Positions 47,652-58,681 are shown, numbered from the whole stretch's first letter. The stretch: DNA of 63,762 nucleotides, filler included, from Reclinomonas americana ATCC 50394 (GCA_048213135.1; 13 parts of 13 records of this genome joined end to end with filler, not necessarily neighbours in it); one strand, 5' to 3'. The notes: a model not told the origin generated them from the sequence alone. Numbers and translations are program-made.

Positions 47652-50600
47652 TCACCGCTTGCGAGGGTGAATTCGACGATGGCACTCAGCGAGCCAGCAA
47701 ATTGCGACCACGGAATGTGGATGTGACTCGCCAAATGCAGCGGTACAATTGTCCACGCATGCAGTGAACAGCTGCATTGCACCTACAGCTGCCCACGCTC
47801 CATCATACATAATCCAAGGCAGCACAGCGACGAAATCGTTAATTCGTCCATATCGCCAAGCATACTGCGGTATCTGGCGTGGCATTCTCGGAACAACACG
47901 CTGGCTTCTGTCAGTGACTCAAGTGTACCTTGACGCAATAGGCCATGCGCTATGGCATACATCGATGACATTGCGATTGGGTGGTCACTGCCAAGAGCCT
48001 TCTGCTGTCGAGCAAGACAATTGCGATGCAATAGAATACCTTCATCAACGCGGCCCAATTCTATCAAACAATTGGCAAAAATGTTCATCGCCATATGTGT
48101 GTCAACATGATTATCACCAAGCTGCTGCTGATGTCCTTCCCAGCATTGCTTCAACAGCGTCGCAGCTTCCTCGAATTGCTCATTGTCGACAAGAAGCAGC
48201 GCGCGCCAGAACACCGCGAGTTGTGAACCGATGTGCCACTCTCCGAAAATAGCACAATGCCGTATGTGGCATCGAGAGAGTGACTCGGCGTCATTTGAGA
48301 AATACCCGAAGTACATCAAACATCGCAGCGAGTCAATTGTCTCCAGCACCGATTGCGCACCATCCGTTGCCTCGAGCTGCTCACACAGCTGATGCGCTTC
48401 CATCCAAGCAGCCTTGCATTCATCTCGACGACGTAACACATGACATATCCAAGCGCGACAAAGACACTCAACAAGAACTCCTTCCCTTGATTCGAGTGAT
48501 TCTTGCGTGCCTACTCCGCGCCTCGCACTCACACGCGCAAGAAGGCGCTCTGCGCCATCAAGCACAAAGCCTTTGATCGGCAACTTGCCAAGAGCGATCA
48601 TCCACGCAAGCCACTCCACAGCGCGACACTGCAGCACACGGGTCCGATTACCAACATCATCCCACATTGCATCACCACTGACCAGTCGTCGCCAAAGGAT
48701 CTCTAACACACCAAGCATGTCTTGCGTCACCAGCAACACGCTCTGCACGTCAAATCCGGGGTCGATCGCAATAAGTGCACAACACAGCAGCCGACACACG
48801 GCAATCTGAGCTTTTGACACCGCAAAACTGTGTGAGATCCATCCACTGATTACGTCGTGCACTCGAAACTCCACATGATCACTCGCACCAGGTTCACAGA
48901 GCAATACTCGCGCCACACTGTCCATGCTCGATGTTCGCGTCACGGTCACGAGATTGACATTGCATAACGCTATCATCGCACCATCCACATCCACCACGTC
49001 ACCTGGACCGCGGAGCAGACGGCGCACTCGCACACGTACATCCCTTTCCTCCACCGCATACATCTCCTCAACCTGCCGTTCAGAGCCCACAATTTCGGGT
49101 GCCCTCCGACGCCGCTCCTGCGCCCTTTCGTGAATGCGCACTTGTCGAGTACAGCCTCCCAGCTCAACAAGCCGATTCGACATCCCCTCATCCTCCGCCA
49201 ACTCTCGCGCTCTTCGCACCTCTGCAGCCTCGCCTATCAATTCTGTTCCGCTAACTGAAATGTCGGGCACACCCGAGAAGATACATCTACATACCCGCAA
49301 CAAAGCAGGCGTCACGGCCAATCCCAGTTCCTTGCATGCCGCCATTAATATCAGCATTCGTCGTGCTGCATTTGATTGCGACATCATATTGCGCGCCAGG
49401 AGATCCGACAACGCAGCATTGCCAATTGCATGCAACACTTCTTCCAGTCTCACACCAATCAGCTCATCCAGCGGCCGTGTGAGCAGCCAACTATGCAACA
49501 TGAAAAGAAAGAACTGATGATGAAAACGCAAGTCTTGTCTGCATCACTCAGTCGATGCATACTTACCCAAGACACACACTCACTTGCAGTGCACTGCACT
49601 GACCACTTGACACCGCTTGCACAATCTGCTGCCGCACATCGGCCGACACGCGATCCCCAAGTTGATCTTCCACTACCTCCGCAATGTCGTCGTTCTCCAC
49701 GTTCGCGAGTAGCACACACACCACCGACGCCAAGTGACTCAGCGAGTCCCGCAGCTGACTCGCCAGCTGACCGTGTCGGCTGGTGACAATTACCACTGGC
49801 GCCACGAGTCCATCGCGCAAACCTGCAATCACATGATCAGCACCCAGGAGCACAGAGAGATACGACGACGGCGCACAACTCACCGCGATCGGCTCCACCG
49901 ACATCACGTATTACACTGCGCACTTGCTCCAGAGATCCCACATTATCTAACACCAACACACCACGCGATGCCTCCATCAGCTGCCGCACTCGACGCTGCA
50001 GTGGTGCAACTTCACCGCCAGCCACCAGCGCATCCACCTGACTTGCCATCCGCCCACCCTCGCCGACATCCACTCGCATCTGCTCGGCAACGAACGCACG
50101 TAGACATACCTCCAGAGCACTCGCAGGCTGCGAATCAGTCGGCCGGAAAGAATGAACTCTTTCAGATATCATCTCACCAGCGTTCGTACAGATATCATTA
50201 CCGCACCTGCGTATGCTCACTCCAATTACCAACATGACCTCGCATCTCCACCGATACGGCTGATCCATCCCAAGACTGTGTTGCCAGCATCTCCGTCACA
50301 ATCAACTCGGCCAGAAATGTTTTGCCGCTGCCACCCGCCCCCATAACCACCACAACCGTGCGCTTGTTGACTATACAGAGACAGACCATTGAAGGTGAGT
50401 GAGGCTACGAGTCCCTCATTTCACAAGTGGCGGAGACACTGGCAATCTCACCATCCAGAGCTGTCACAATGCGTGACGCCAGTTGCGCCGCTTGAGCACG
50501 ACGACTTGGAAAGCGAAATGACTCGACGGGATCGACTGTGCGCGCAATCAATGGAGGAGTCGGCTGCGTGCGCTTTGATACGATCACAGCAGCCGTCGAT

Positions 50601-51636
50601 GGCGATGCTGAAAGCATGCGCTCCGAGAGACCAAGAATGCCTACGCCACGGTGAACAGTGTCATCATGCTCAGCAAAGGAACCAAGCTGAGAGAGCGTAT
50701 CACAAACGTGTCAACTCACCATCTCGCGCCTCGTTGAGTTGATGCAACAGCTCATCTGTCGCATCCCGACCCACCTGCAGTCGACGGATCAAGTCGTGCA
50801 ACTCGCCCTCTTGCACACTTCGCGATTGATCGCCAAGCAGAGATGCCAGTTGCGGACGAGCTTCGTGTGCCTCTCTCGACAATAAGTCGAACACTTCTCG
50901 AATTCGCGAGACTGCCGCCCTCTGCAAACATTACACTCCGTCAGCCAGATGACAACTGAGCATGGAGGGCGGAACAGTGTGGTCAACACACCACATCGCT
51001 ATCAACAGGAAGCAGCCAATCTGGCGACACCCGCGGATGATCTCGGTGACCAGCGTATAGGAGGATCGAGAAACACAACTCAGCGCAAAAAGCGCGGCAG
51101 TCATGTACCTGGTATCGCCACTGACTCATGATCTCAACATCTGCCTCCGTCAGCTGAACACAAGCGCCCTCTCCGCCTGGCATTGAGCTGCGAAGAAGAA
51201 AGATTGGAGATGAAAGTCAGATGCAACAACTGGCAAGAGACAGAGAGAGAACAGAGAGAGAACAGAGAGAAAGAGAGTGACTCGCCGCGTGTCTCGTTTT
51301 CCTGGCGGCTTCAACCACTCTCGAATGTGATCCACACCCTCGCTTATGTACGAGTCAACAAACGCCGGCAACACCTGCTCCACTTTGCACTGCAATGCAC
51401 GAGTGCCCGGGCGCAGAATGGTCCCTAAGCTGTCCACCGTTACCGGAATGCTACGTCAAGATTTTGAGGAAATGGAATTACAAACTACAAGGGAAACAAA
51501 GCAAAGGGAACAGCTGTTGACATCAAGGCCTTTGGATTAGCCACGCAACTCAAGCACGAAGTCAGTGACTGTTACCGAGGATCCAAGCAAGTAACCCGAG
51601 ATTCTGGATGAACCTAAATACGAAGCACCAACATCC
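47652..51636 (-). CDS. NLR-like module 2: degenerate HEPN-like domain, NB-ARC (AfsR-like STAND) ATPase, TPR_12 repeats; one frameshift near 47790; possibly continuous with the upstream gene
   Basis: Spliced motifs FRFPSRRAQAAQL, Walker A VVVMGAGGSGKT (~50317-50355), VEMRGH, Walker B VLVLDNVGSLEQVR and sensor VVIVTSR. TPR units LGDNHVDTHMAMN, LGSDHPIAMSSM and FGESHPHSVVA. Confidence 0.8.
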
Positions 51637-54600
51637 CTGTGAGGGTACTGGCACCTTGCATCTCGCAAGTGGAGCACACACCTGTACCGTGTGCAGTTGA
51701 CAGCGAATCGTTGCGAGAGTACAATGGTTTGCTTGGAACCTTTACGGCCTCCGCTGAATCTCTTACTCCGTGGGCAATTGCGCTGGCCATTTCCGGAATT
51801 ACACAACCAAGAATTCGACAGATTAATCCAGTTGCAGACTCGGCAACTACGATCTGCTTGTTGAACGTAATTCCGACAACAAGGCCGGACGCACCGAGAT
51901 TACAGCATGACCGACTGAAAAGATAATCACAGGGACCGTTTCGAACTGCTTCACCCGTAAGAAGCTTCCACGATTTCATCACACCATCCATATCTCGACT
52001 TTGAACGAGGTTGGCTGCAGATACTTCCACGGACACCACTGCGGCAATGTGTTCCCCAAACCGTTGCACTTGCACTCCACTCGCCACCGACCACACACGC
52101 ACTGAATTGTCCCTTGCACCGCTAACCACATAGAAGTCATCTGTCGTTAGCGCCAAGCACGTTACAGCGCTCGCGTGGCCTGTGAGACAATGTACCATGC
52201 AGCCTGTGTCACATTGCCATACACGGACCGTACGGTCAGCCCCGGCGGTGACGACAAAAAGTCCGTCAGCGCTCACCGATACTGCACTTACAGAGTCATC
52301 ATGACCTTCCAGTCTGCGCACCAGTTCGCCGCTCTCCAGCGACAACACACGGACAACACCGTCACTGCAACTGCTGAAGACGTGGCCACCAATTGGTGCC
52401 ACCGCCAGCGCAGTCACCTCACCACCATGGCAGCACGCTTTCCACAGCTGCGTTCCATCAGTCGGACACCAAAGTTGCACAGTCCAATCATCACTGCCGC
52501 TCACACACAGCGCCTTATTCAAGTGAACAAATGCAACAGTATTAACCGCATCTTTGTGCCCGTGGTATTGGAGTAGTTCTTCACCAGTGAAAATTGACCA
52601 CACTCGAATGGAAGGTTCATTGCCGCCAGTAACCGCAATTGACCCAAATTTCGTCAGCGTACATGCCACGCACCGCACCCCCGTACCATGACCTCCCAAA
52701 CGACGAGAATGTTCGCTGTTGTCGGTTGACCAAAGGCGAAGTGTTCTGTCATGTCCACAACTCGCGATCAGCCCGGTCGGCGCCGTGGTTACGGCAAATA
52801 CTTCGACTTGGTGACCATCGAAGCGAAGGATCTCAAGACCCGTGACAAGAGAAAAAACTCTAACGGAATGGTCAAACCAGCCACATGCAATGTGGTTGCC
52901 GTCTGGAAACAAAGCTGCAGCTGTTGTTAAATGCCGCCTACTGTCAAATTTGAACTTTCGCAATTGCTCACCGCTAGCAAGAGACCACGTGCGCACAGTG
53001 CCATCATCACTGCCACTGATAATCCACTGACCATCGGCTGCAATTGTTACCGACCGAATCTGGCCTTCATGGCCTCTCATGCACCGGACTCGCTCGGCAG
53101 TCTGAAGCGAAAACACTCTGATTGTCATATCCCGACTGCCGCTCACTGCAATTGAGCTGTCCCGAGTTGATGCTACCGTCAACACACCGCCGGAATGGTC
53201 ACAAAAGCACCATTTTTCACGGCCGTCGGCGACATAGTACACACGAACGGTGCTGTCGTCAACGCCACACAAGATGTACTGACAGTTACTGGTAACTGCA
53301 ACTGATAAAACAGGCGACAGGGCGTCACTTGTTTGCCATAACAGCAACCCAGTTTCCAAAGACCACAGACAGACCGACCCATCTTCACTACCACAAACGG
53401 CAAACTGGTCATCTGATGAAATGGCAGTAGCCGTGACGTCGACAACGGATGAGCCGGATTTCGCAACAATTCTTTCCTCACCTGAAGCAGACCACACTCT
53501 TAACATGCCATCAGTACATCCACCGGCTACTTGCTTTCCAGAAGAAGCAACAGTGACTGAGGAAACCAATGCTCGACGCACTTTCATCGGCTCCTTTGGC
53601 CTCTTCACATCCGTCATATCCGCCCCTCTGAAATCGGCCTCCCTTGCGAACGCCGTGCACATGTTCACCCCTCTCAAATCCGCTCCCCTCCACACCGTCC
53701 GATGCATCACCGCGTCTCTCAAATCCGCACCCCTCACTCGCACACCCGACAGATCTCGCCCACTGAACGACACTTGCGCCACACACAGAACCGTCGCTGC
53801 ATTCGCTGCAGCCGTCACCACTCTCTCCTCATCCACCTCTCGTGACAACTCAACCACCTCCCACAATCTCGCTTGCAATCGAGGAGACCTTCGCATCACC
53901 TCGGCCATCTGCTCCACCAGCGCCGGTAGATCATTCAGCAAGCGGACTGCCAGCACATGCTGCTGCACATCTTCCATCGTCAATCTTCTCTCCTCATCCC
54001 ACGTTTCCCACGCAAACACATGTCGTGCCACACAATGCTCCAGCAGCGACAGATGCACGAACCCCCACTGATCTGTCCCATACCGTTGTACAATCGGACA
54101 GCACCCTCGTACATACTCGTTCCTGTGACCGAGGAACTTGTCAAATGGTCCCTCATCCACTCGTGGCAAGGCGAGTGGCGCACCACCAAAGTCATCCTCC
54201 TCACCACCATCTCCTGGCCGACTATCCGTCACAGACACACGAACCACGTTCCTCTCATGCATCAGCCGTGCCAGTCCCTCACAGAACGCGAGACACGTCT
54301 CCTCACTCGGCACACGCTCCGCACCGAGACGCGTCTGCCTCTCCTGCTCCCTCACTATCCACTGCCGAATGAATCGGTCAAACACATCACACCGAGTTGG
54401 TCGCTGCACACCACTCGCCACCAATTGCGGCAGAACACGAGCCACCACTGCCAGCAGGAACGGATTTGACACTAGTGCATCCAGTCCATGCACACTCTTC
54501 AGTGCACGAATGTACTCCTCCGCTGTCGACCACTGCACCCCTACATCATCATCGTCACCACCCACATGCACCAGTCGCTCAAAGTACTCGTCAATCTGCT

Positions 54601-56555
54601 CCATATTGAATGGCGCAATGTGTCGCTCCATCAGCTGCTGTATGCACAGCTGTCCTCGTGCATCCACTGGAGCGAAGTGCCGCTCATACTGCGTCACATC
54701 ACCCAGTGCCGTCAGTGCGTAATCCCCTCGACAGGTGATAATCACCTTCACATCGCGACACACATCCAGCTGGTTCTTGACAAACAGATTCACACCACGG
54801 TACAGCTCGTCGTACCCGTCAAGTAATAACAACAGCGGTTCCTCCTTCAACCGTCGCACGTCAGCCTCACTGAATCCCAACTCAGGTGAGAGTCGTTCGA
54901 GTGCCTCCTCCAATAATCGCTCATCGGCATTGCGCAGAGCGCCAAGAGGCACACGAACAGGCTCACGTCTGCTCTCTCTCGTCTGCCACTGCCGCCACGC
55001 TCGCTCGGCCAGCACCGACATGCTGGTGGTCTTGCCGGCACCACTGTTGCCGAACAGCACCAGAACACGGTGAGTGGTGTTGGAGTCGGAGAGGAAAGCA
55101 TCCACCTCCGTCAACAGATCCGCCATCTTGTCTCCCGAAGAGACGTCACGCTCACGGGAGCACAGCAGTGGCACATACATCTGCATGCCCTTGCGCACAC
55201 TATCGTCGTGCTGGTAGAACGAGAGCTCACGCACAGCCAGTCGATGCAGTCGCTCCTCGAATGTGCTGATGATGAGTCGCGCGTGGCGCGCCTCGCAGAT
55301 GCGAGCAGAGTATCGAGTGAATTCGCCAACTGTCAACCAAATGCGTGAAATGATGGAAAGAAAGACACCATCACCACCAAGGTACTGCTGCACAGTGGCA
55401 TCCGTCAACATGAGGTCCTTGTGAGCCAACGCCTTTCTCACATCGTTCAGCTCCTCCACAGCCTTCCGCTCATCAGAATTGTCAATTAACAGCAGCTTGC
55501 GACCGTCATCCTCAACAAAGCCACCATACAAGATGATGGAGGTGAGTGCAGTTGTGTCGAAACCATCACACGGAGGGCCGGATGAGGGGTCGGCGTCATA
55601 TGCCGCACGCCAGGACAACACCGCCGGCTGCTTCTCCTCGAACAGCTTGACTCGCCCAGGGCGGAGTGGAGCATGGCGATCACGCCATGCCATTACGTCA
55701 CTTGGGTGCATTCGCGGAGACCACAAATCCACTGCCCACGCCCGTACATCAAAGTCAGGATGATCACGACTGAACTGCGCCAGTGCGCATTGACAGCGCA
55801 GACGCACGGCCTCCTCCACCACCTCAAAGGCCATATTGATGCGCTGGGAGTTGATCATGCTGCAAGACACACAAAAGCACAGTCATCACATACTCGCTTC
55901 GAAGAGCAAGGAAGGGAGAGAGGAAGATGGCGACGGCAAGCAACACATGTACAAACCGAGTCACTCGCTCCGAGTTGCTGTGTGAAGACATGAGAGTGAG
56001 ATGCATGTTGTGCACAGAGGGATGGTCCACAAACACAAACCTTCCACTCTCACTCCCACTCCCTCCACTCGACTGCAGCACCACGCCAAGTGTCAGACGG
56101 ACAACAAGGTGAGTGGATGAGTTGATGCCAAGAGTTTTCAGCTTCAGCACACTCGCATCCTCCAAGTCGTACTCCACTGGCTTCTCCACCCCCACAATAT
56201 CCATCCGCCCATCTCCACTCTTCTCACGCAGCAAGCGTGTGGTCTCGCGCAGCAAGTCCGCGAGAGTGGACATGGCCGACATGCCCTCCACCACCACCGA
56301 CAGCGACGAATCGTGCGCCGCACTCACGTTCACAGAGAACTGCATGGAAGAGAGGGCGGGGAGAGAGCGGCGTGAGAGGTGACAGAGTGCGGCGTGAGAG
56401 GAGGGAAGCGATCAAACAAGATAACGCAAAAGAATGATGTGAGGGAACATACATGAATAGAAAGAGCGTGTGTGTGAGAGAGAGAGAGAGAGGGAGAGAG
56501 AGAGAGAGAGAGAGAGCGCGCGCAAGTGTGTAGAGTGACAACGACGCACCGACAT
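51614..56555 (-). CDS. NLR-like module 1: ubiquitin-like, HEPN (DZIP3-like), NACHT, pentapeptide repeats, ~13-14 WD40 repeats
   Basis: Exons: ATGTCG at 56555; UBL exon (…KTLGINSSTHLVVRL); then one ~4.2-kb exon. That exon has FDTTALTSII…VEELNDVRKALAH (R-X4-H at 55438-55421), Walker A LFGNSGAGKTT, Walker B LLLLDGYDEL, KVIITCR, NPFLL, FVHLSLLEH, pentapeptides GADLR/EADFRGADMT and many GH…W/D WD40 units. Confidence 0.9.
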
Positions 56556-56596
56556 TGTGCGTGCGATTTGTCGTGCGATGAACTGAAACTTGTCAT

Positions 56597-58399
56597 CTAA
56601 TCTGTCGTCGGGTTTGTCGGGTTCTTCCGTGAAGCACCCTTGTCACCACACCCCGCTGCACCGCCAAGTGCAGTCACTACATTCATATATCCGACAAGCC
56701 CATCAAAAATCCTGTCAACACAAACAAGACGACATGCGTCAGCACTCGACACCCCTTCTTCCTCCGTTTTATTACCAGAGGAACCCACCGCAAACGCATC
56801 ATCGCACAGTTTGACTCTCTGTGGCAAGGTGTCTGTGCGCCGGAGTCAAGCATGCACGACGAGAGCAAGCACCAACTGCGCGCTGATCTTGTTCGAAAAG
56901 AAGATCACGCAGCGGAGGCAGAGGAATAGAAGCAACGGCGGAGTGGAGGAGAAGTAACAACACCAGAATTATGCGTGAGTGTAGGAGGAGAAGGAGCCAG
57001 ATGGGGAGCTGCTTGCCAGGACAAGGAGACGGACTGCGAGAGGAGACGATAAACATGCCCCTGCACTGGTTGAGGTGTCCATGGCGACAACAACAGGTCA
57101 TCGCCCATGTGAGGAAGAGATGGCACAAATGAGTTAAACAAGCAGTGTGAAGTCGTGATGCAAAGGAAGCGCGATCAATTCTTGGTACTCATTCTCATAG
57201 AAGTGGGTCAATGCAAAAGAATGCATCGCGAACAACACGTGACGACAAGTCAGAGAACTGTCGCACGCACCATGCTGCACTACAGTGATAAAATTACATG
57301 CGACTTATACTACCACAACACCAGCATCCTCCAACACCCCCAGCAGCCGCACAATCTGCGCAGTTTGCTCCTCCTGCGCGCCGCACAACCAGAATTCAAC
57401 AACCCGCCCTCCTCTTCCTCCCTTCACCCCCGCTCTTCTCACCTCCAGCGCCCTATGCGCCTCCATGGCCTGCCGTATGGGCTCCATCGCCTCCCACTCC
57501 TCCACAAACTCCTGATCCGCACTAATCTGCCGCGTCAATCGCCACCGCTGGTCCTGCAGTCGCAGGAGCTGCGACTTGAGGAACTGAATGTGGTCCTCGG
57601 TGTCCTCCGCCCCTGCATCACACGCATGAGGCAGAAGCTCACCAAAACAAAGGGACAAGACATCGCAACTCTCCAATCGTCTCCGCGTCTCCGCGCGCTT
57701 CTTGTCGGTGATCGACACCATGATGCCGACGTTGCGGTTGGCGCGTCGCACCGAGTCCTCCGCGGCGATGATGTCTTGGGGCTGCGCGGGGGAGAAGGGG
57801 GAGGCAGGGGAAAGGGAAGGAAGGGGGAAGGGGGTGAGAAAACAGGAAAAGAAGGAGGATATACGAGCGTGGATGATGCAAGCAAGTGTGGGATAGAGAG
57901 CGCCTATCGGAGTGGCAGAAACAGAGAGCGTGTCTCTCTTTTGCTTGATGTCTGTGCTGCTCTATATCACTCACACTCGCTCTCTCGCCTGTCATATCTC
58001 GCACTCTTCTAGGTGTTGATCACCTTCCTCTAACAAACAGCCTACAGCGCGTTCGCTGGGTCATCCTCTCTTACCCTTCTCTCTCCTATTCTGTCTCTTT
58101 CTCTGTCTTACTGCCTATCTGTCTGACTTACAGTTTGTCAGTCTGTCTCTCTCCGTAATCCATCGTTACCTTCCAGCTGGGGATCACCTGCATTTATCGA
58201 AATTTTCCACTGCGTTCTCTCTGTCATCTCTTTCACGCCACTCCTTCAACTCATCTCTCTCTCTCTCTCTGTCTGTCTGGCCTGTCGTACCCTTCCTCGT
58301 CTACGTGGCAACCTCCGTCTTTCCTGTTCCATGCGCGTGTTGTCTCTCATCCTCTTTCTTCAGTTCCACTCACTCTCCCTTTTTTCTGTCTCGCACACG

Positions 58400-58487
<88 letters not shown>

Positions 58488-58681
58488 NNNNNNNNNNNNN
58501 NNNNNNNNNNNNNNNNNNNNNNNNNNNNNNNTTAATTAATTAANNNNNNNNNNNNNNNNNNNNNNNNNNNNNNNNNNNNNNNNNNNNGTTTCCTTTCCTT
58601 ACTTACGGTACGGTACGTACTACCTACGTCCTACTACGTAAGTTACCTACCTCGTACTACTTTACTTACTACTACTCTACG

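What the first reader, a model, noticed from the sequence alone, without database searches (positions are those of the whole stretch)
47652..56555. Tandem, possibly fused, double-NLR system: UBL-HEPN-NACHT-pentapeptide-WD40 followed by inactive HEPN-NB-ARC-TPR
Seen: two STAND ATPases of different clades, with different sensor repeats, lie head-to-tail on the minus strand. Their N-terminal domains align by eye. Module 1 reads VKLFEEKQPAVLSWR…CDGFDTTALTSIILYGG…LLLIDNSDERKAVEELNDVRKALAH. Module 2 reads VQLTEADVEIMSQWR…CRAFCAELCFSILLYAG…WLLPVDSDVRAAVSRIREVFDLLSREAH. Established: HEPN RNases use R-X4-6-H and act as dimers, and NACHT-WD40 and NB-ARC-TPR are NLR-type architectures. Inference: a two-sensor innate-immunity or cell-death device in which an active RNase effector is paired with an inactive copy acting as regulator, decoy or dimer partner. 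I know of no described protist system with this layout.
Basis: partly seen in the sequence, partly recalled or inferred. Interest (0 to 1): 0.92.

Follow-up and report, generated by a model that had tools for sequence, protein, structure and literature searches.

The report
Two neighbouring NLR-like immune-type genes
Two separate intron-containing genes for NLR-type molecular switches lie one behind the other in a little-sampled eukaryote; the first probably carries an RNA-cutting HEPN head, a combination already known from animals and bacteria, while the claimed inactive twin head on the second is not established.

Summary
The layout is real, but it is two genes, not one. Both lie on the minus strand of one gap-free contig (43885-58487).

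- **Gene 1** (56345-51614) has one 181-nt intron and encodes 1516 aa. It contains NACHT, pentapeptide repeats and about 13 WD40 blades, all above Pfam cut-offs.
- **Gene 2** (51183-47783) has six GT-AG introns of 61-81 nt and encodes 984 aa. It is a P-loop STAND NTPase with C-terminal TPRs. Whether it is NB-ARC or NACHT is unresolved (26.7 vs 21.8 bits).
- **Separation:** a stop codon and 430 nt lie between them, and gene 2 has its own ATG.

Gene 1's head is an orphan, with no true relative among 1.84 billion proteins. The HEPN reading rests on one helix carrying R-x4-H:

- Pfam HEPN_Swt1 scores 14.7-15.8 bits, below the 27.5 cut-off.
- My actinobacterial HEPN profile scores 15.2 bits, reached by 0 of 5000 shuffles.
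- A second, proteobacterial profile is not significant.
- The structure model was unusable.

Gene 2's head matches no HEPN profile. It resembles gene 1's head only weakly (31% over 68 columns, P about 0.003-0.07). The UBL is unverified.

HEPN-NACHT and HEPN-STAND-TPR fusions are already published. Verdict: a new member of a known kind; the active/inactive pairing is speculative.

The parts
56041..56345 (-). Gene 1 exon 1 (ATG at 56345; 101 codons plus 2 nt).
   Evidence: The splice to exon 2 is in frame. The codon log-odds is +31.7 in frame against -62.5 and -17.6 in the other frames; true coding windows score 5.8-43.5. There is no Pfam or NCBIfam hit. AlphaFold pLDDT is 42.
55860..56040 (-). 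Gene 1 intron, 181 nt, GT...AG.
51614..55859 (-). Gene 1 exon 2, with no intron, ending at a TAG stop at 51614. The whole protein is 1516 aa.
55301..55858 (-). Gene 1 N-terminal orphan domain (d1), P0001 residues 9 to about 194. It is a candidate Swt1-like HEPN.
   Evidence: - Homology to bacterial NACHT proteins begins only at P0001 residue 195.
- Pfam HEPN_Swt1 is sub-threshold.
- My own HMM scores 15.2 bits, and 0 of 5000 shuffles reach that.
- phmmer against 1.84 billion proteins returned only 2 hits, both repetitive and spurious.
55421..55438 (-). R-x4-H motif (within VRKALAH); R243 and H248 of the spliced protein.
   Evidence: It aligns to the R..H of the HEPN_Swt1 profile.
54575..55069 (-). 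NACHT NTPase domain, with Walker A GNSGAGKT, Walker B LLLLLDGYDE and VIITCR.
   Evidence: Pfam NACHT 1.3e-7, 32 bits, above the cut-off. My own NACHT HMM scores 48.3 bits against 6.1 for NB-ARC. The motifs were located.
53609..53749 (-). Pentapeptide repeats between NACHT and WD40.
   Evidence: Pfam Pentapeptide 2.9e-8, 33.6 bits. The same placement is seen in the bacterial homologue P0009.
51944..53563 (-). WD40 region of about 13 repeats, enough for two beta-propellers.
   Evidence: Pfam WD40 4.4e-64 and many propeller families. The repeat count was made by eye.
51184..51613 (-). Spacer of 430 nt between gene 1's stop and gene 2's ATG. A CT-rich tract lies just before the ATG, as upstream of gene 1's ATG.
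47783..51183 (-). Gene 2: seven exons (51183-50992, 50921-50720, 50640-50452, 50370-50207, 50127-49884, 49822-49567, 49490-47783). It has six GT-AG introns of 61-81 nt and encodes 984 aa.
   Evidence: The spliced reading frame is open from ATG to TAG. There is no RNA evidence.
50720..51183 (-). Gene 2 N-terminal region (exons 1-2, d2). It resembles d1 weakly and has no R or H at the aligned motif positions.
   Evidence: There is no match to the HEPN profiles.
50207..50370 (-). Gene 2 P-loop exon (GAGGSGKT). Walker B (VLVLDNV) and VIVTSR lie in the next two exons.
   Evidence: Pfam nSTAND3 scores 2.5e-5 on the ORF piece and 1e-4 on the exact exon; NB-ARC 0.0025 in both. My own HMMs score NB-ARC 26.7 and NACHT 21.8 bits.
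47783..48217 (-). Gene 2 C-terminal TPR repeats.
   Evidence: Pfam TPR_10 6.3e-10 and TPR_12 3.5e-8, both above cut-off.

Best explanation
Two independent, adjacent NLR-like (STAND) genes lie in an unsampled eukaryote.

**Gene 1** is a 1516-aa switch. Its parts are:
- a C-terminal double WD40 propeller, plus pentapeptide repeats, which acts as the ligand sensor;
- a NACHT NTPase, which drives nucleotide-dependent oligomerisation;
- a lineage-specific N-terminal head, which is most likely a divergent Swt1-like HEPN RNase with an intact R-x4-H.

By inference, oligomerisation brings the heads together. HEPN active sites form across dimers. The resulting RNA cleavage leads to growth arrest or cell death as a defence or incompatibility response.

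**Gene 2** is a separate 984-aa STAND-TPR protein. Its roughly 190-aa head has unknown function and may or may not be a degenerate relative of gene 1's head.

**What is shown and what is inferred.** The gene structures, the NACHT, pentapeptide, WD40 and TPR domains, the P-loop, and the orphan status of the head are shown. The HEPN identity, the RNase activity and the activation mechanism are inferred.
For: **Gene models and domains**
- The gene models are open and spliced in frame, and exon 1 looks coding.
- Domains score above Pfam cut-offs.
- The gene 1 body is 29% identical over 1189 aa (E=2e-118) to a NACHT-pentapeptide-WD40 protein of a Mycoavidus MAG. That protein has a different N-terminus, so the head is a swappable module.

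**Head as HEPN**
- The only Pfam hit is HEPN_Swt1, on the motif helix (E=0.039 and 0.017).
- A profile built from 22 of 26 actinobacterial PF18731 matches scores 15.2 bits (E=1.1e-6 for one sequence). It aligns R-x4-H to the family's R..H, and the N-terminal helix aligns collinearly.
- 0 of 5000 shuffles reach that score; the best reaches 8.4.
- It is the best of 1164 six-frame ORFs in the window, at E=0.017, with the next at E=3.
- The nearest ESM Atlas cluster is HEPN_Swt1, at cosine 0.75, which is only a lead.
- HEPN heads on NACHT/STAND proteins are an established architecture (PMC3710099 passages).
Against: **HEPN evidence is thin**
- All HEPN scores are below Pfam's 27.5-bit cut-off and rest on about 28 residues.
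- hhalign gives P=0.0025 and probability 12%.
- An independent profile from 11 proteobacterial matches (one row probably mis-extracted) gives 7.0 bits, and shuffles reach 9.2.
- The combined profile gives 11.9 bits against a best shuffle of 10.0.
- An R-x4-6-H string alone is expected by chance about once in a domain of this size (my estimate).
- The AlphaFold single-sequence model has pLDDT 41.6, so there is no evidence on the fold.
- phmmer against PDB finds only the PKR dsRNA-binding domain, at E=0.015 and 0.059, over the same residues.
- PADLOC gives a weak CARF-model hit at E=0.004.

**Data gaps**
- There is no RNA data, so the exon boundaries and the separateness of the two genes rest on sequence alone (one search listed no run).
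Confidence: 0.55

Rival explanations
1. One reading: the two genes form one device. Gene 1's active HEPN is paired with gene 2's catalytically dead HEPN copy, which acts as a regulator, decoy or heterodimer partner.
For: - The genes are adjacent, on the same strand and 430 nt apart.
- The heads align collinearly at 31% over 68 columns (hhalign P=0.0034).
- With domain-sized pieces, 8 to 29 of 2000 shuffles reach the Smith-Waterman score.
- In that alignment, gene 2 has neither the R nor the H.
Against: - With longer flanks, 105 of 3000 and 215 of 3000 shuffles reach the score.
- Gene 2's head scores -0.2 bits on the HEPN profile, and hhalign gives P=0.21.
- An alternative register for its 'motif helix' exists at residues 118-131, so the alignment is not unique.
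- If the heads are homologous, gene 2 lacks the first ~70 residues of gene 1's domain.
- No conservation of the pairing could be examined, because no relatives were found.
- NLR genes often cluster without working together (general knowledge).
Confidence: 0.12
2. Gene 1's head is not a HEPN. It is an unrelated, lineage-specific helical or mixed domain, for example an adaptor or a dsRNA-binding-like module. The R-x4-H helix would then be a chance resemblance.
For: - All profile scores are sub-threshold.
- The second HEPN profile is not significant.
- There are no relatives in 1.84 billion representatives.
- The PKR dsRBD is the only PDB hit, at E=0.015.
- The low-confidence model places short strands between the helices.
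Against: - HEPN_Swt1 is the only Pfam family reported, even at E up to 10 on the narrow piece.
- 0 of 5000 shuffles reach the actinobacterial-profile score.
- A profile of 30 bacterial RNase III dsRBDs reports no match to gene 1's head.
- No other dsRBD chain appears in the PDB search.
Confidence: 0.33
3. The two modules are exons of one giant transcript encoding a fused double-NLR protein.
For: On paper, a GT donor at 51681 (phase 1 in gene 1's frame) and an AG acceptor at 51177 would join the frames. This comes from my reading.
Against: - That intron would be 504 nt, whereas the seven inferred introns are 61-181 nt.
- Gene 1 has an in-frame stop.
- Gene 2 has an ATG preceded by the same kind of CT-rich tract as gene 1's ATG.
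- An ORF upstream of gene 2's ATG (51452-51288) that looked like a missing first helix has no similarity to gene 1's head or to the HEPN profile.
- The codon scores of the spacer are uninformative.
Confidence: 0.07
4. Gene 2 is a decaying paralogue or pseudogene with no function.
For: - Its NOD and TPR body has no close relatives; the only hits are 3 TPR-only matches.
- The last TPR seems, by eye, to continue in another frame past the TAG at 47783, down to 47652.
Against: - A 984-codon frame stays open across six canonical introns.
- The Walker A, Walker B and sensor motifs are intact.
- The out-of-frame continuation has no TPR hit in Pfam.
Confidence: 0.1

Closest known systems
Animal HEPN-NACHT proteins: the CXorf38 group of the Swt1-like family, and DZIP3-like HEPN fused to NACHT. 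They are expanded in cnidarians, cephalochordates, oyster and Capsaspora (PMC3710099 passages; PMC8260672 and PMC10236652 passages).
   Same: An N-terminal HEPN-type head sits on a NACHT NTPase with C-terminal repeats, and an immune or cell-death role is presumed.
   Different: - The head here is below threshold for HEPN_Swt1 and gave no HEPN_DZIP3 hit.
- It has no detectable sequence relatives.
- The sensor is pentapeptide plus WD40.
- The host is not an animal, judging by MLH1 at about 53% identity to animal MLH1.
Bacterial HEPN-STAND-TPR proteins, such as the Npun_F6454 group, and HEPN-AAA+ proteins of the Ava_2192 group (PMC3710099, Table 1 passages).
   Same: They carry a Swt1/Abi2-type HEPN head with R-x4-H on a large NTPase. 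My best-matching profile comes from such actinobacterial proteins of about 1100 aa.
   Different: Similarity is limited to one helix. The eukaryotic gene has an intron and an extra 5' exon.
Bacterial NACHT-pentapeptide-WD40 proteins, for example P0009 and its paralogues in a Mycoavidus cysteinexigens MAG.
   Same: The order is the same: pre-NACHT helix, NACHT, pentapeptide, double WD40 propeller. Identity is 29% over 1189 aa.
   Different: Their roughly 450-aa N-termini are unrelated and match no Pfam family. Another relative, P0008, carries a protein kinase instead.
RNase L. The KEN domain is classed as HEPN in a PMC3710099 passage; the activation mechanism is recalled from general knowledge.
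   Same: It is a working analogy only: ligand-induced self-association switches on a HEPN-type RNase.
   Different: The sensor and scaffold differ (ankyrin repeats and a pseudokinase), and it is not a STAND NTPase.

Membership tests
HEPN superfamily, Swt1-like (PF18731): gene 1 head | Profile match at or above the curated cut-off (27.5 bits) | tested here: not met
   Scores are 14.7 bits (E=0.039) and 15.8 bits (E=0.017).
HEPN superfamily, Swt1-like (PF18731): gene 1 head | R-x4-6-H motif at the position where the family has it | tested here: met
   R243-x4-H248 aligns to the profile's R..H. The Pfam stretch covers profile positions 73-101 of 115.
HEPN superfamily, Swt1-like (PF18731): gene 1 head | All-alpha four-helix core fold | tested here: inconclusive
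   The single-sequence AlphaFold model is mostly helical but has pLDDT 41.6. No fold search was run on it.
HEPN superfamily, Swt1-like (PF18731): gene 1 head | Dimer-dependent RNase activity | not testable with these tools
   This needs biochemistry.
HEPN superfamily: gene 2 head | Profile match and R-x4-6-H motif | tested here: not met
   The score is -0.2 bits and hhalign gives P=0.21. There is no R or H at the positions aligned to gene 1's motif.
NACHT (PF05729): gene 1 | Profile match above cut-off, plus Walker A and Walker B | tested here: met
   Pfam scores 32.0 bits against a 26.7 cut-off. My own NACHT HMM scores 48.3 bits against 6.1 for NB-ARC. The motifs were located.
NB-ARC (PF00931): gene 2 | Profile match above cut-off and better than to other STAND clades | tested here: inconclusive
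   Only single exons could be sent to Pfam; the P-loop exon scores 17.6 bits against a 23.5 cut-off. On the spliced protein, my local HMMs score NB-ARC 26.7 and NACHT 21.8 bits.
WD40, pentapeptide and TPR sensor repeats | Pfam matches above cut-off | tested here: met
   WD40 210.6 bits, Pentapeptide 33.6, TPR_10 39.2, TPR_12 34.0.
Ubiquitin-like fold: gene 1 exon 1 | Profile match or beta-grasp model | tested here: inconclusive
   There is no Pfam hit at E up to 1 and no NCBIfam hit. AlphaFold pLDDT is 42.0; the strand-strand-helix-strand-strand order would fit, but confidence is too low.
Paired sensor/helper NLRs (plant type; recalled from general knowledge) | Genetically and physically coupled pair, usually head-to-head with a shared promoter | tested here: not met
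   The orientation here is head-to-tail. Coupling was not testable.

The most novel reading that the evidence does not exclude
A unicellular eukaryote carries a two-gene NLR module. A NACHT-WD40 receptor is armed with an active, highly divergent HEPN RNase. It is controlled by, or shares a composite active site with, a catalytically dead copy of the same head on a neighbouring STAND-TPR receptor with a different sensor. That would be a HEPN/pseudo-HEPN sensor-regulator pair outside animals, plants and bacteria.
Probability: 0.1. Interest if true: 0.7.

Novelty: new member of a known kind. Interest (0 to 1): 0.35.

Why it matters
If the head is a HEPN RNase, this adds a protist example to the HEPN-on-STAND design, which is already documented in bacteria and animals. 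Its NACHT-pentapeptide-WD40 body has bacterial proteins as its nearest relatives, which bears on how NLR-like modules move and recombine between bacteria and eukaryotes.

The head is an orphan at the sequence level, so it would extend the known sequence range of HEPN domains. None of this overturns current views. The unusual claim is a working active/inactive pair, and that remains untested.

Tried and rejected
- **Whole genome.** None is held for this window, so no genome-wide paralogue search was possible. tblastn of both proteins against the window found only the genes themselves.
- **RNA runs.** No RNA holder was listed.
- **Search for relatives of gene 1's head.** phmmer against 1.84 billion representatives gave 2 hits, both repetitive and spurious. 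The metagenome contig scan matched 247 pattern stretches, none of which was a relative. The notes of this scan held nothing for the place or the sequence, and one unrelated bacterial note for the words.
- **Structure.** Both AlphaFold jobs ran on single sequences (gene 1's head and exon 1) and gave pLDDT 41.6 and 42.0. I therefore ran no fold search. Gene 2's head spans an intron, and spliced sequences cannot be handed to the remote tools, so it was not folded and no multimer job was sent.
- **ESM Atlas.** The second call was closed.
- **Upstream ORF.** I suspected that an ORF upstream of gene 2's ATG (51452-51288) encoded a missing first helix. It has no similarity to gene 1's head (1266 of 3000 shuffles reach the score) or to the HEPN profile, and I rejected the idea. 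One of the three hypothetical constructs in that call was mis-framed, and I ignore it.
- **dsRBD idea.** The PKR hit is not backed by a 30-sequence bacterial dsRBD profile or by Pfam.
- **Codon-usage scoring.** Scoring of the spacer and of gene 1's tail was uninformative.
- **Gene 2's large exon.** It found only 3 TPR-only relatives.
- **Rows dropped from my profiles.** Of 26 actinobacterial PF18731 matches I used 22. I dropped L030, which is identical to L029, and L031, L034 and L053, which were extracted on the wrong strand. The proteobacterial set kept all 11 rows, although L091 looks mis-extracted.

Full report
**What is there.** The region holds two genes on the minus strand, not one.
- The window is eukaryotic and has short GT-AG introns.
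- Gene 1 starts at ATG 56345. A 305-nt first exon is spliced over a 181-nt intron (56040-55860) into a 4246-nt exon that ends at TAG 51614. The protein is 1516 aa.
- The first exon scores +31.7 on a codon log-odds trained on the rest of both genes. That lies inside the range of true coding windows (5.8 to 43.5). The other frames score -62.5 and -17.6.
- Gene 2 starts at ATG 51183 and has seven exons and six introns of 61-81 nt. All introns are GT...AG, and five of the six donors begin with GTG. The spliced frame is open for 984 codons, down to TAG 47783.
- Both models rest on sequence alone. No RNA run was listed and no whole genome is held.

**Assembly.** The window's N runs are twelve identical linkers: 44 N, then TTAATTAATTAA, then 44 N. 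They sit in simple repeats. The two genes lie inside one uninterrupted contig, 43885-58487, so their adjacency is not a scaffolding artefact.

**Gene 1 body.**
- Pfam gives NACHT (32.0 bits, cut-off 26.7), Pentapeptide (33.6 bits) and WD40 (210.6 bits, with many propeller families).
- I count about 13 WD repeats by eye.
- My own HMMs were built from 12 NACHT and 17 NB-ARC matches in actinobacterial genomes. They score gene 1 at 48.3 bits (NACHT) against 6.1 bits (NB-ARC).
- The nearest relatives found were 5 proteins at 24-31% identity, from JGI, NCBI and Logan sources.
- The NCBI one, P0009, belongs to a Mycoavidus cysteinexigens MAG, which holds four full-length copies; a fifth lies in another MAG of the species. 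It aligns from P0001 residue 195 to the end, at 29% over 1189 aa with E=2e-118.
- P0009's first 450 residues are unrelated and match no Pfam family. Another relative carries a kinase.
- So the N-terminal 194 residues of exon 2 are a separate, swappable head.

**Is the head a HEPN? Evidence for.**
- HEPN_Swt1 is the only Pfam family reported for the head. It scores 14.7 bits (E=0.039) on 232 aa and 15.8 bits (E=0.017) on a 101-aa piece searched up to E=10. The match covers profile positions 73-101 of 115, which is the motif helix.
- I built a profile from 22 of 26 PF18731 matches found in 25 of 401 actinobacterial genomes. It scores 15.2 bits (E=1.1e-6 for one sequence). It aligns R243-x4-H248 onto the family's R..H and weakly aligns the N-terminal helix in collinear order.
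- 0 of 5000 shuffles reach that score; the best reaches 8.4.
- Among 1164 six-frame ORFs of the window, gene 1 is the top hit at E=0.017, and the next has E=3.
- The nearest ESM Atlas cluster is HEPN_Swt1 at cosine 0.75, which that tool rates as a lead only.

**Is the head a HEPN? Evidence against.**
- Every score is below Pfam's cut-off and rests on about 28 residues.
- hhalign gives P=0.0025 and probability 12%.
- A second profile, from the 11 matches found in 401 proteobacterial genomes, gives 7.0 bits, while shuffles reach 9.2. The pooled profile gives 11.9 bits against 10.0 for the best shuffle.
- phmmer against 1.84 billion representatives found no true relative, so no alignment could be built. 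The single-sequence AlphaFold model is unusable at pLDDT 41.6.
- phmmer against PDB returns only the PKR dsRNA-binding region, at E=0.015 and 0.059. A profile of 30 bacterial dsRBDs reports no match to the head.
- I put the HEPN reading at about 0.6.

**UBL.** Exon 1 has no Pfam or NCBIfam hit. Its model has pLDDT 42.0. The UBL claim is unverified.

**Gene 2.**
- The P-loop exon hits nSTAND3 (2.5e-5) and NB-ARC (0.0025), both below cut-off.
- The Walker B and sensor-1-like motifs lie in the next two exons.
- The C-terminus has TPR_10 and TPR_12 above cut-off.
- On the spliced protein my local profiles score 26.7 bits for NB-ARC and 21.8 bits for NACHT. It is a STAND NTPase, but the clade is open.
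- Its large exon found only 3 TPR-only relatives.
- By eye, the last TPR seems to continue in another frame beyond the stop, down to 47652. Pfam does not confirm this.

**Are the two heads related?**
- blastp gives 30% over 53 aa with E=0.024. hhalign gives 31% over 68 columns with P=0.0034.
- In Smith-Waterman shuffle tests with 340-aa and 200-aa pieces, 105 of 3000 and 215 of 3000 shuffles reach the score.
- With 198-aa and 150-aa pieces, 29, 18, 10 and 8 of 2000 reach it under four scoring schemes.
- Gene 2's head does not match any HEPN profile.
- A second possible register exists for its motif helix.
- I put homology at about 0.45, and the full active/inactive-pair model at about 0.12.

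**Fusion.**
- Gene 1 ends with a stop, and 430 nt follow.
- Gene 2's ATG is preceded by a CT-rich tract like the one before gene 1's ATG.
- An in-frame GT-AG join from 51681 to 51177 can be drawn, but it would be a 504-nt intron with no support.
- An upstream ORF that looked like a missing helix failed every test.

**Organism.** An MLH1 exon at 40341-41198 is closest to one EukProt protein and is about 49-56% identical to animal MLH1. Neighbouring ORFs carry sortilin/BNR, teneurin-type EGF and ankyrin domains. This is an unsampled eukaryote, which is consistent with 'protist'.

**Comparison with what is known.** In Anantharaman et al. 2013 (PMC3710099) I read the passages found for NACHT, Swt1 and STAND. 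They list:
- Swt1-like HEPN (the CXorf38 group) fused to NACHT and DEATH in cephalochordates and cnidarians;
- DZIP3-like HEPN fused to NACHT and TPR, with expansions in Nematostella, oyster and Capsaspora;
- bacterial HEPN-STAND-TPR proteins.

Passages in PMC8260672 report 17 to 83 HEPN-NACHT proteins per anthozoan genome, and PMC10236652 reports the same trend in corals. My searches for HEPN with NACHT and Swt1, for HEPN with NLR, NB-ARC and WD40, and for NACHT with pentapeptide, WD40 and STAND listed no paper describing this exact layout in a protist. Supplements were not read. The finding is therefore a new member of a known kind.

**Mechanism (inferred).**
- The WD40/pentapeptide sensor releases NACHT-driven oligomerisation.
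- Oligomerisation brings the heads together.
- If the heads are HEPN, composite R/H sites form and cleave RNA, giving arrest or death.
- Gene 2 would act as an independent receptor unless shown otherwise.

Noticed in passing
window 12237-62702 (twelve places, e.g. 43785-43884 and 58488-58587): Every N run is the same 100-base linker: 44 N, then TTAATTAATTAA, then 44 N. Each is flanked by simple repeats (CT, GA, GT or GAGG tracts). The window is therefore a scaffold of contigs joined at microsatellites.
   Followed up: partly
window 51614-55859 versus 49490-51183: Gene 1's 4.2-kb body has no intron, and its nearest relatives found are bacterial-type proteins, including one from a fungal endosymbiont MAG. 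The first 1.7 kb of gene 2 holds six introns. This hints at a bacterial origin for the NACHT-pentapeptide-WD40 module, with a eukaryotic 5' exon added later. Codon-position GC is similar in the two genes.
   Followed up: partly
window 27505-32341, minus strand: Long ORFs carry BNR/Asp-box, Sortilin-Vps10 and teneurin-type EGF repeats, so a large extracellular repeat protein gene is likely.
   Followed up: no
window 47652-47918, minus strand: Past gene 2's stop, a reading frame shifted by one base seems by eye to continue the last TPR for about 45 codons. This could be a real frameshift or an assembly indel. Pfam does not recognise it.
   Followed up: partly
window 40341-41198, minus strand: This is an MLH1 exon (DNA_mis_repair domain, 2e-31). 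The best match is a EukProt protein, and animal MLH1 is about 53% identical.
   Followed up: partly
L001-L004 (one Mycoavidus cysteinexigens MAG) and L005 (another MAG of the species): One MAG holds four full-length paralogues of a 1700-aa NACHT-pentapeptide-WD40 protein, at 73-100% identity to P0009; a fifth, at 65%, lies in a second MAG (L005). The ~470-aa N-termini of the four (L001-L004) match no Pfam family.
   Followed up: no
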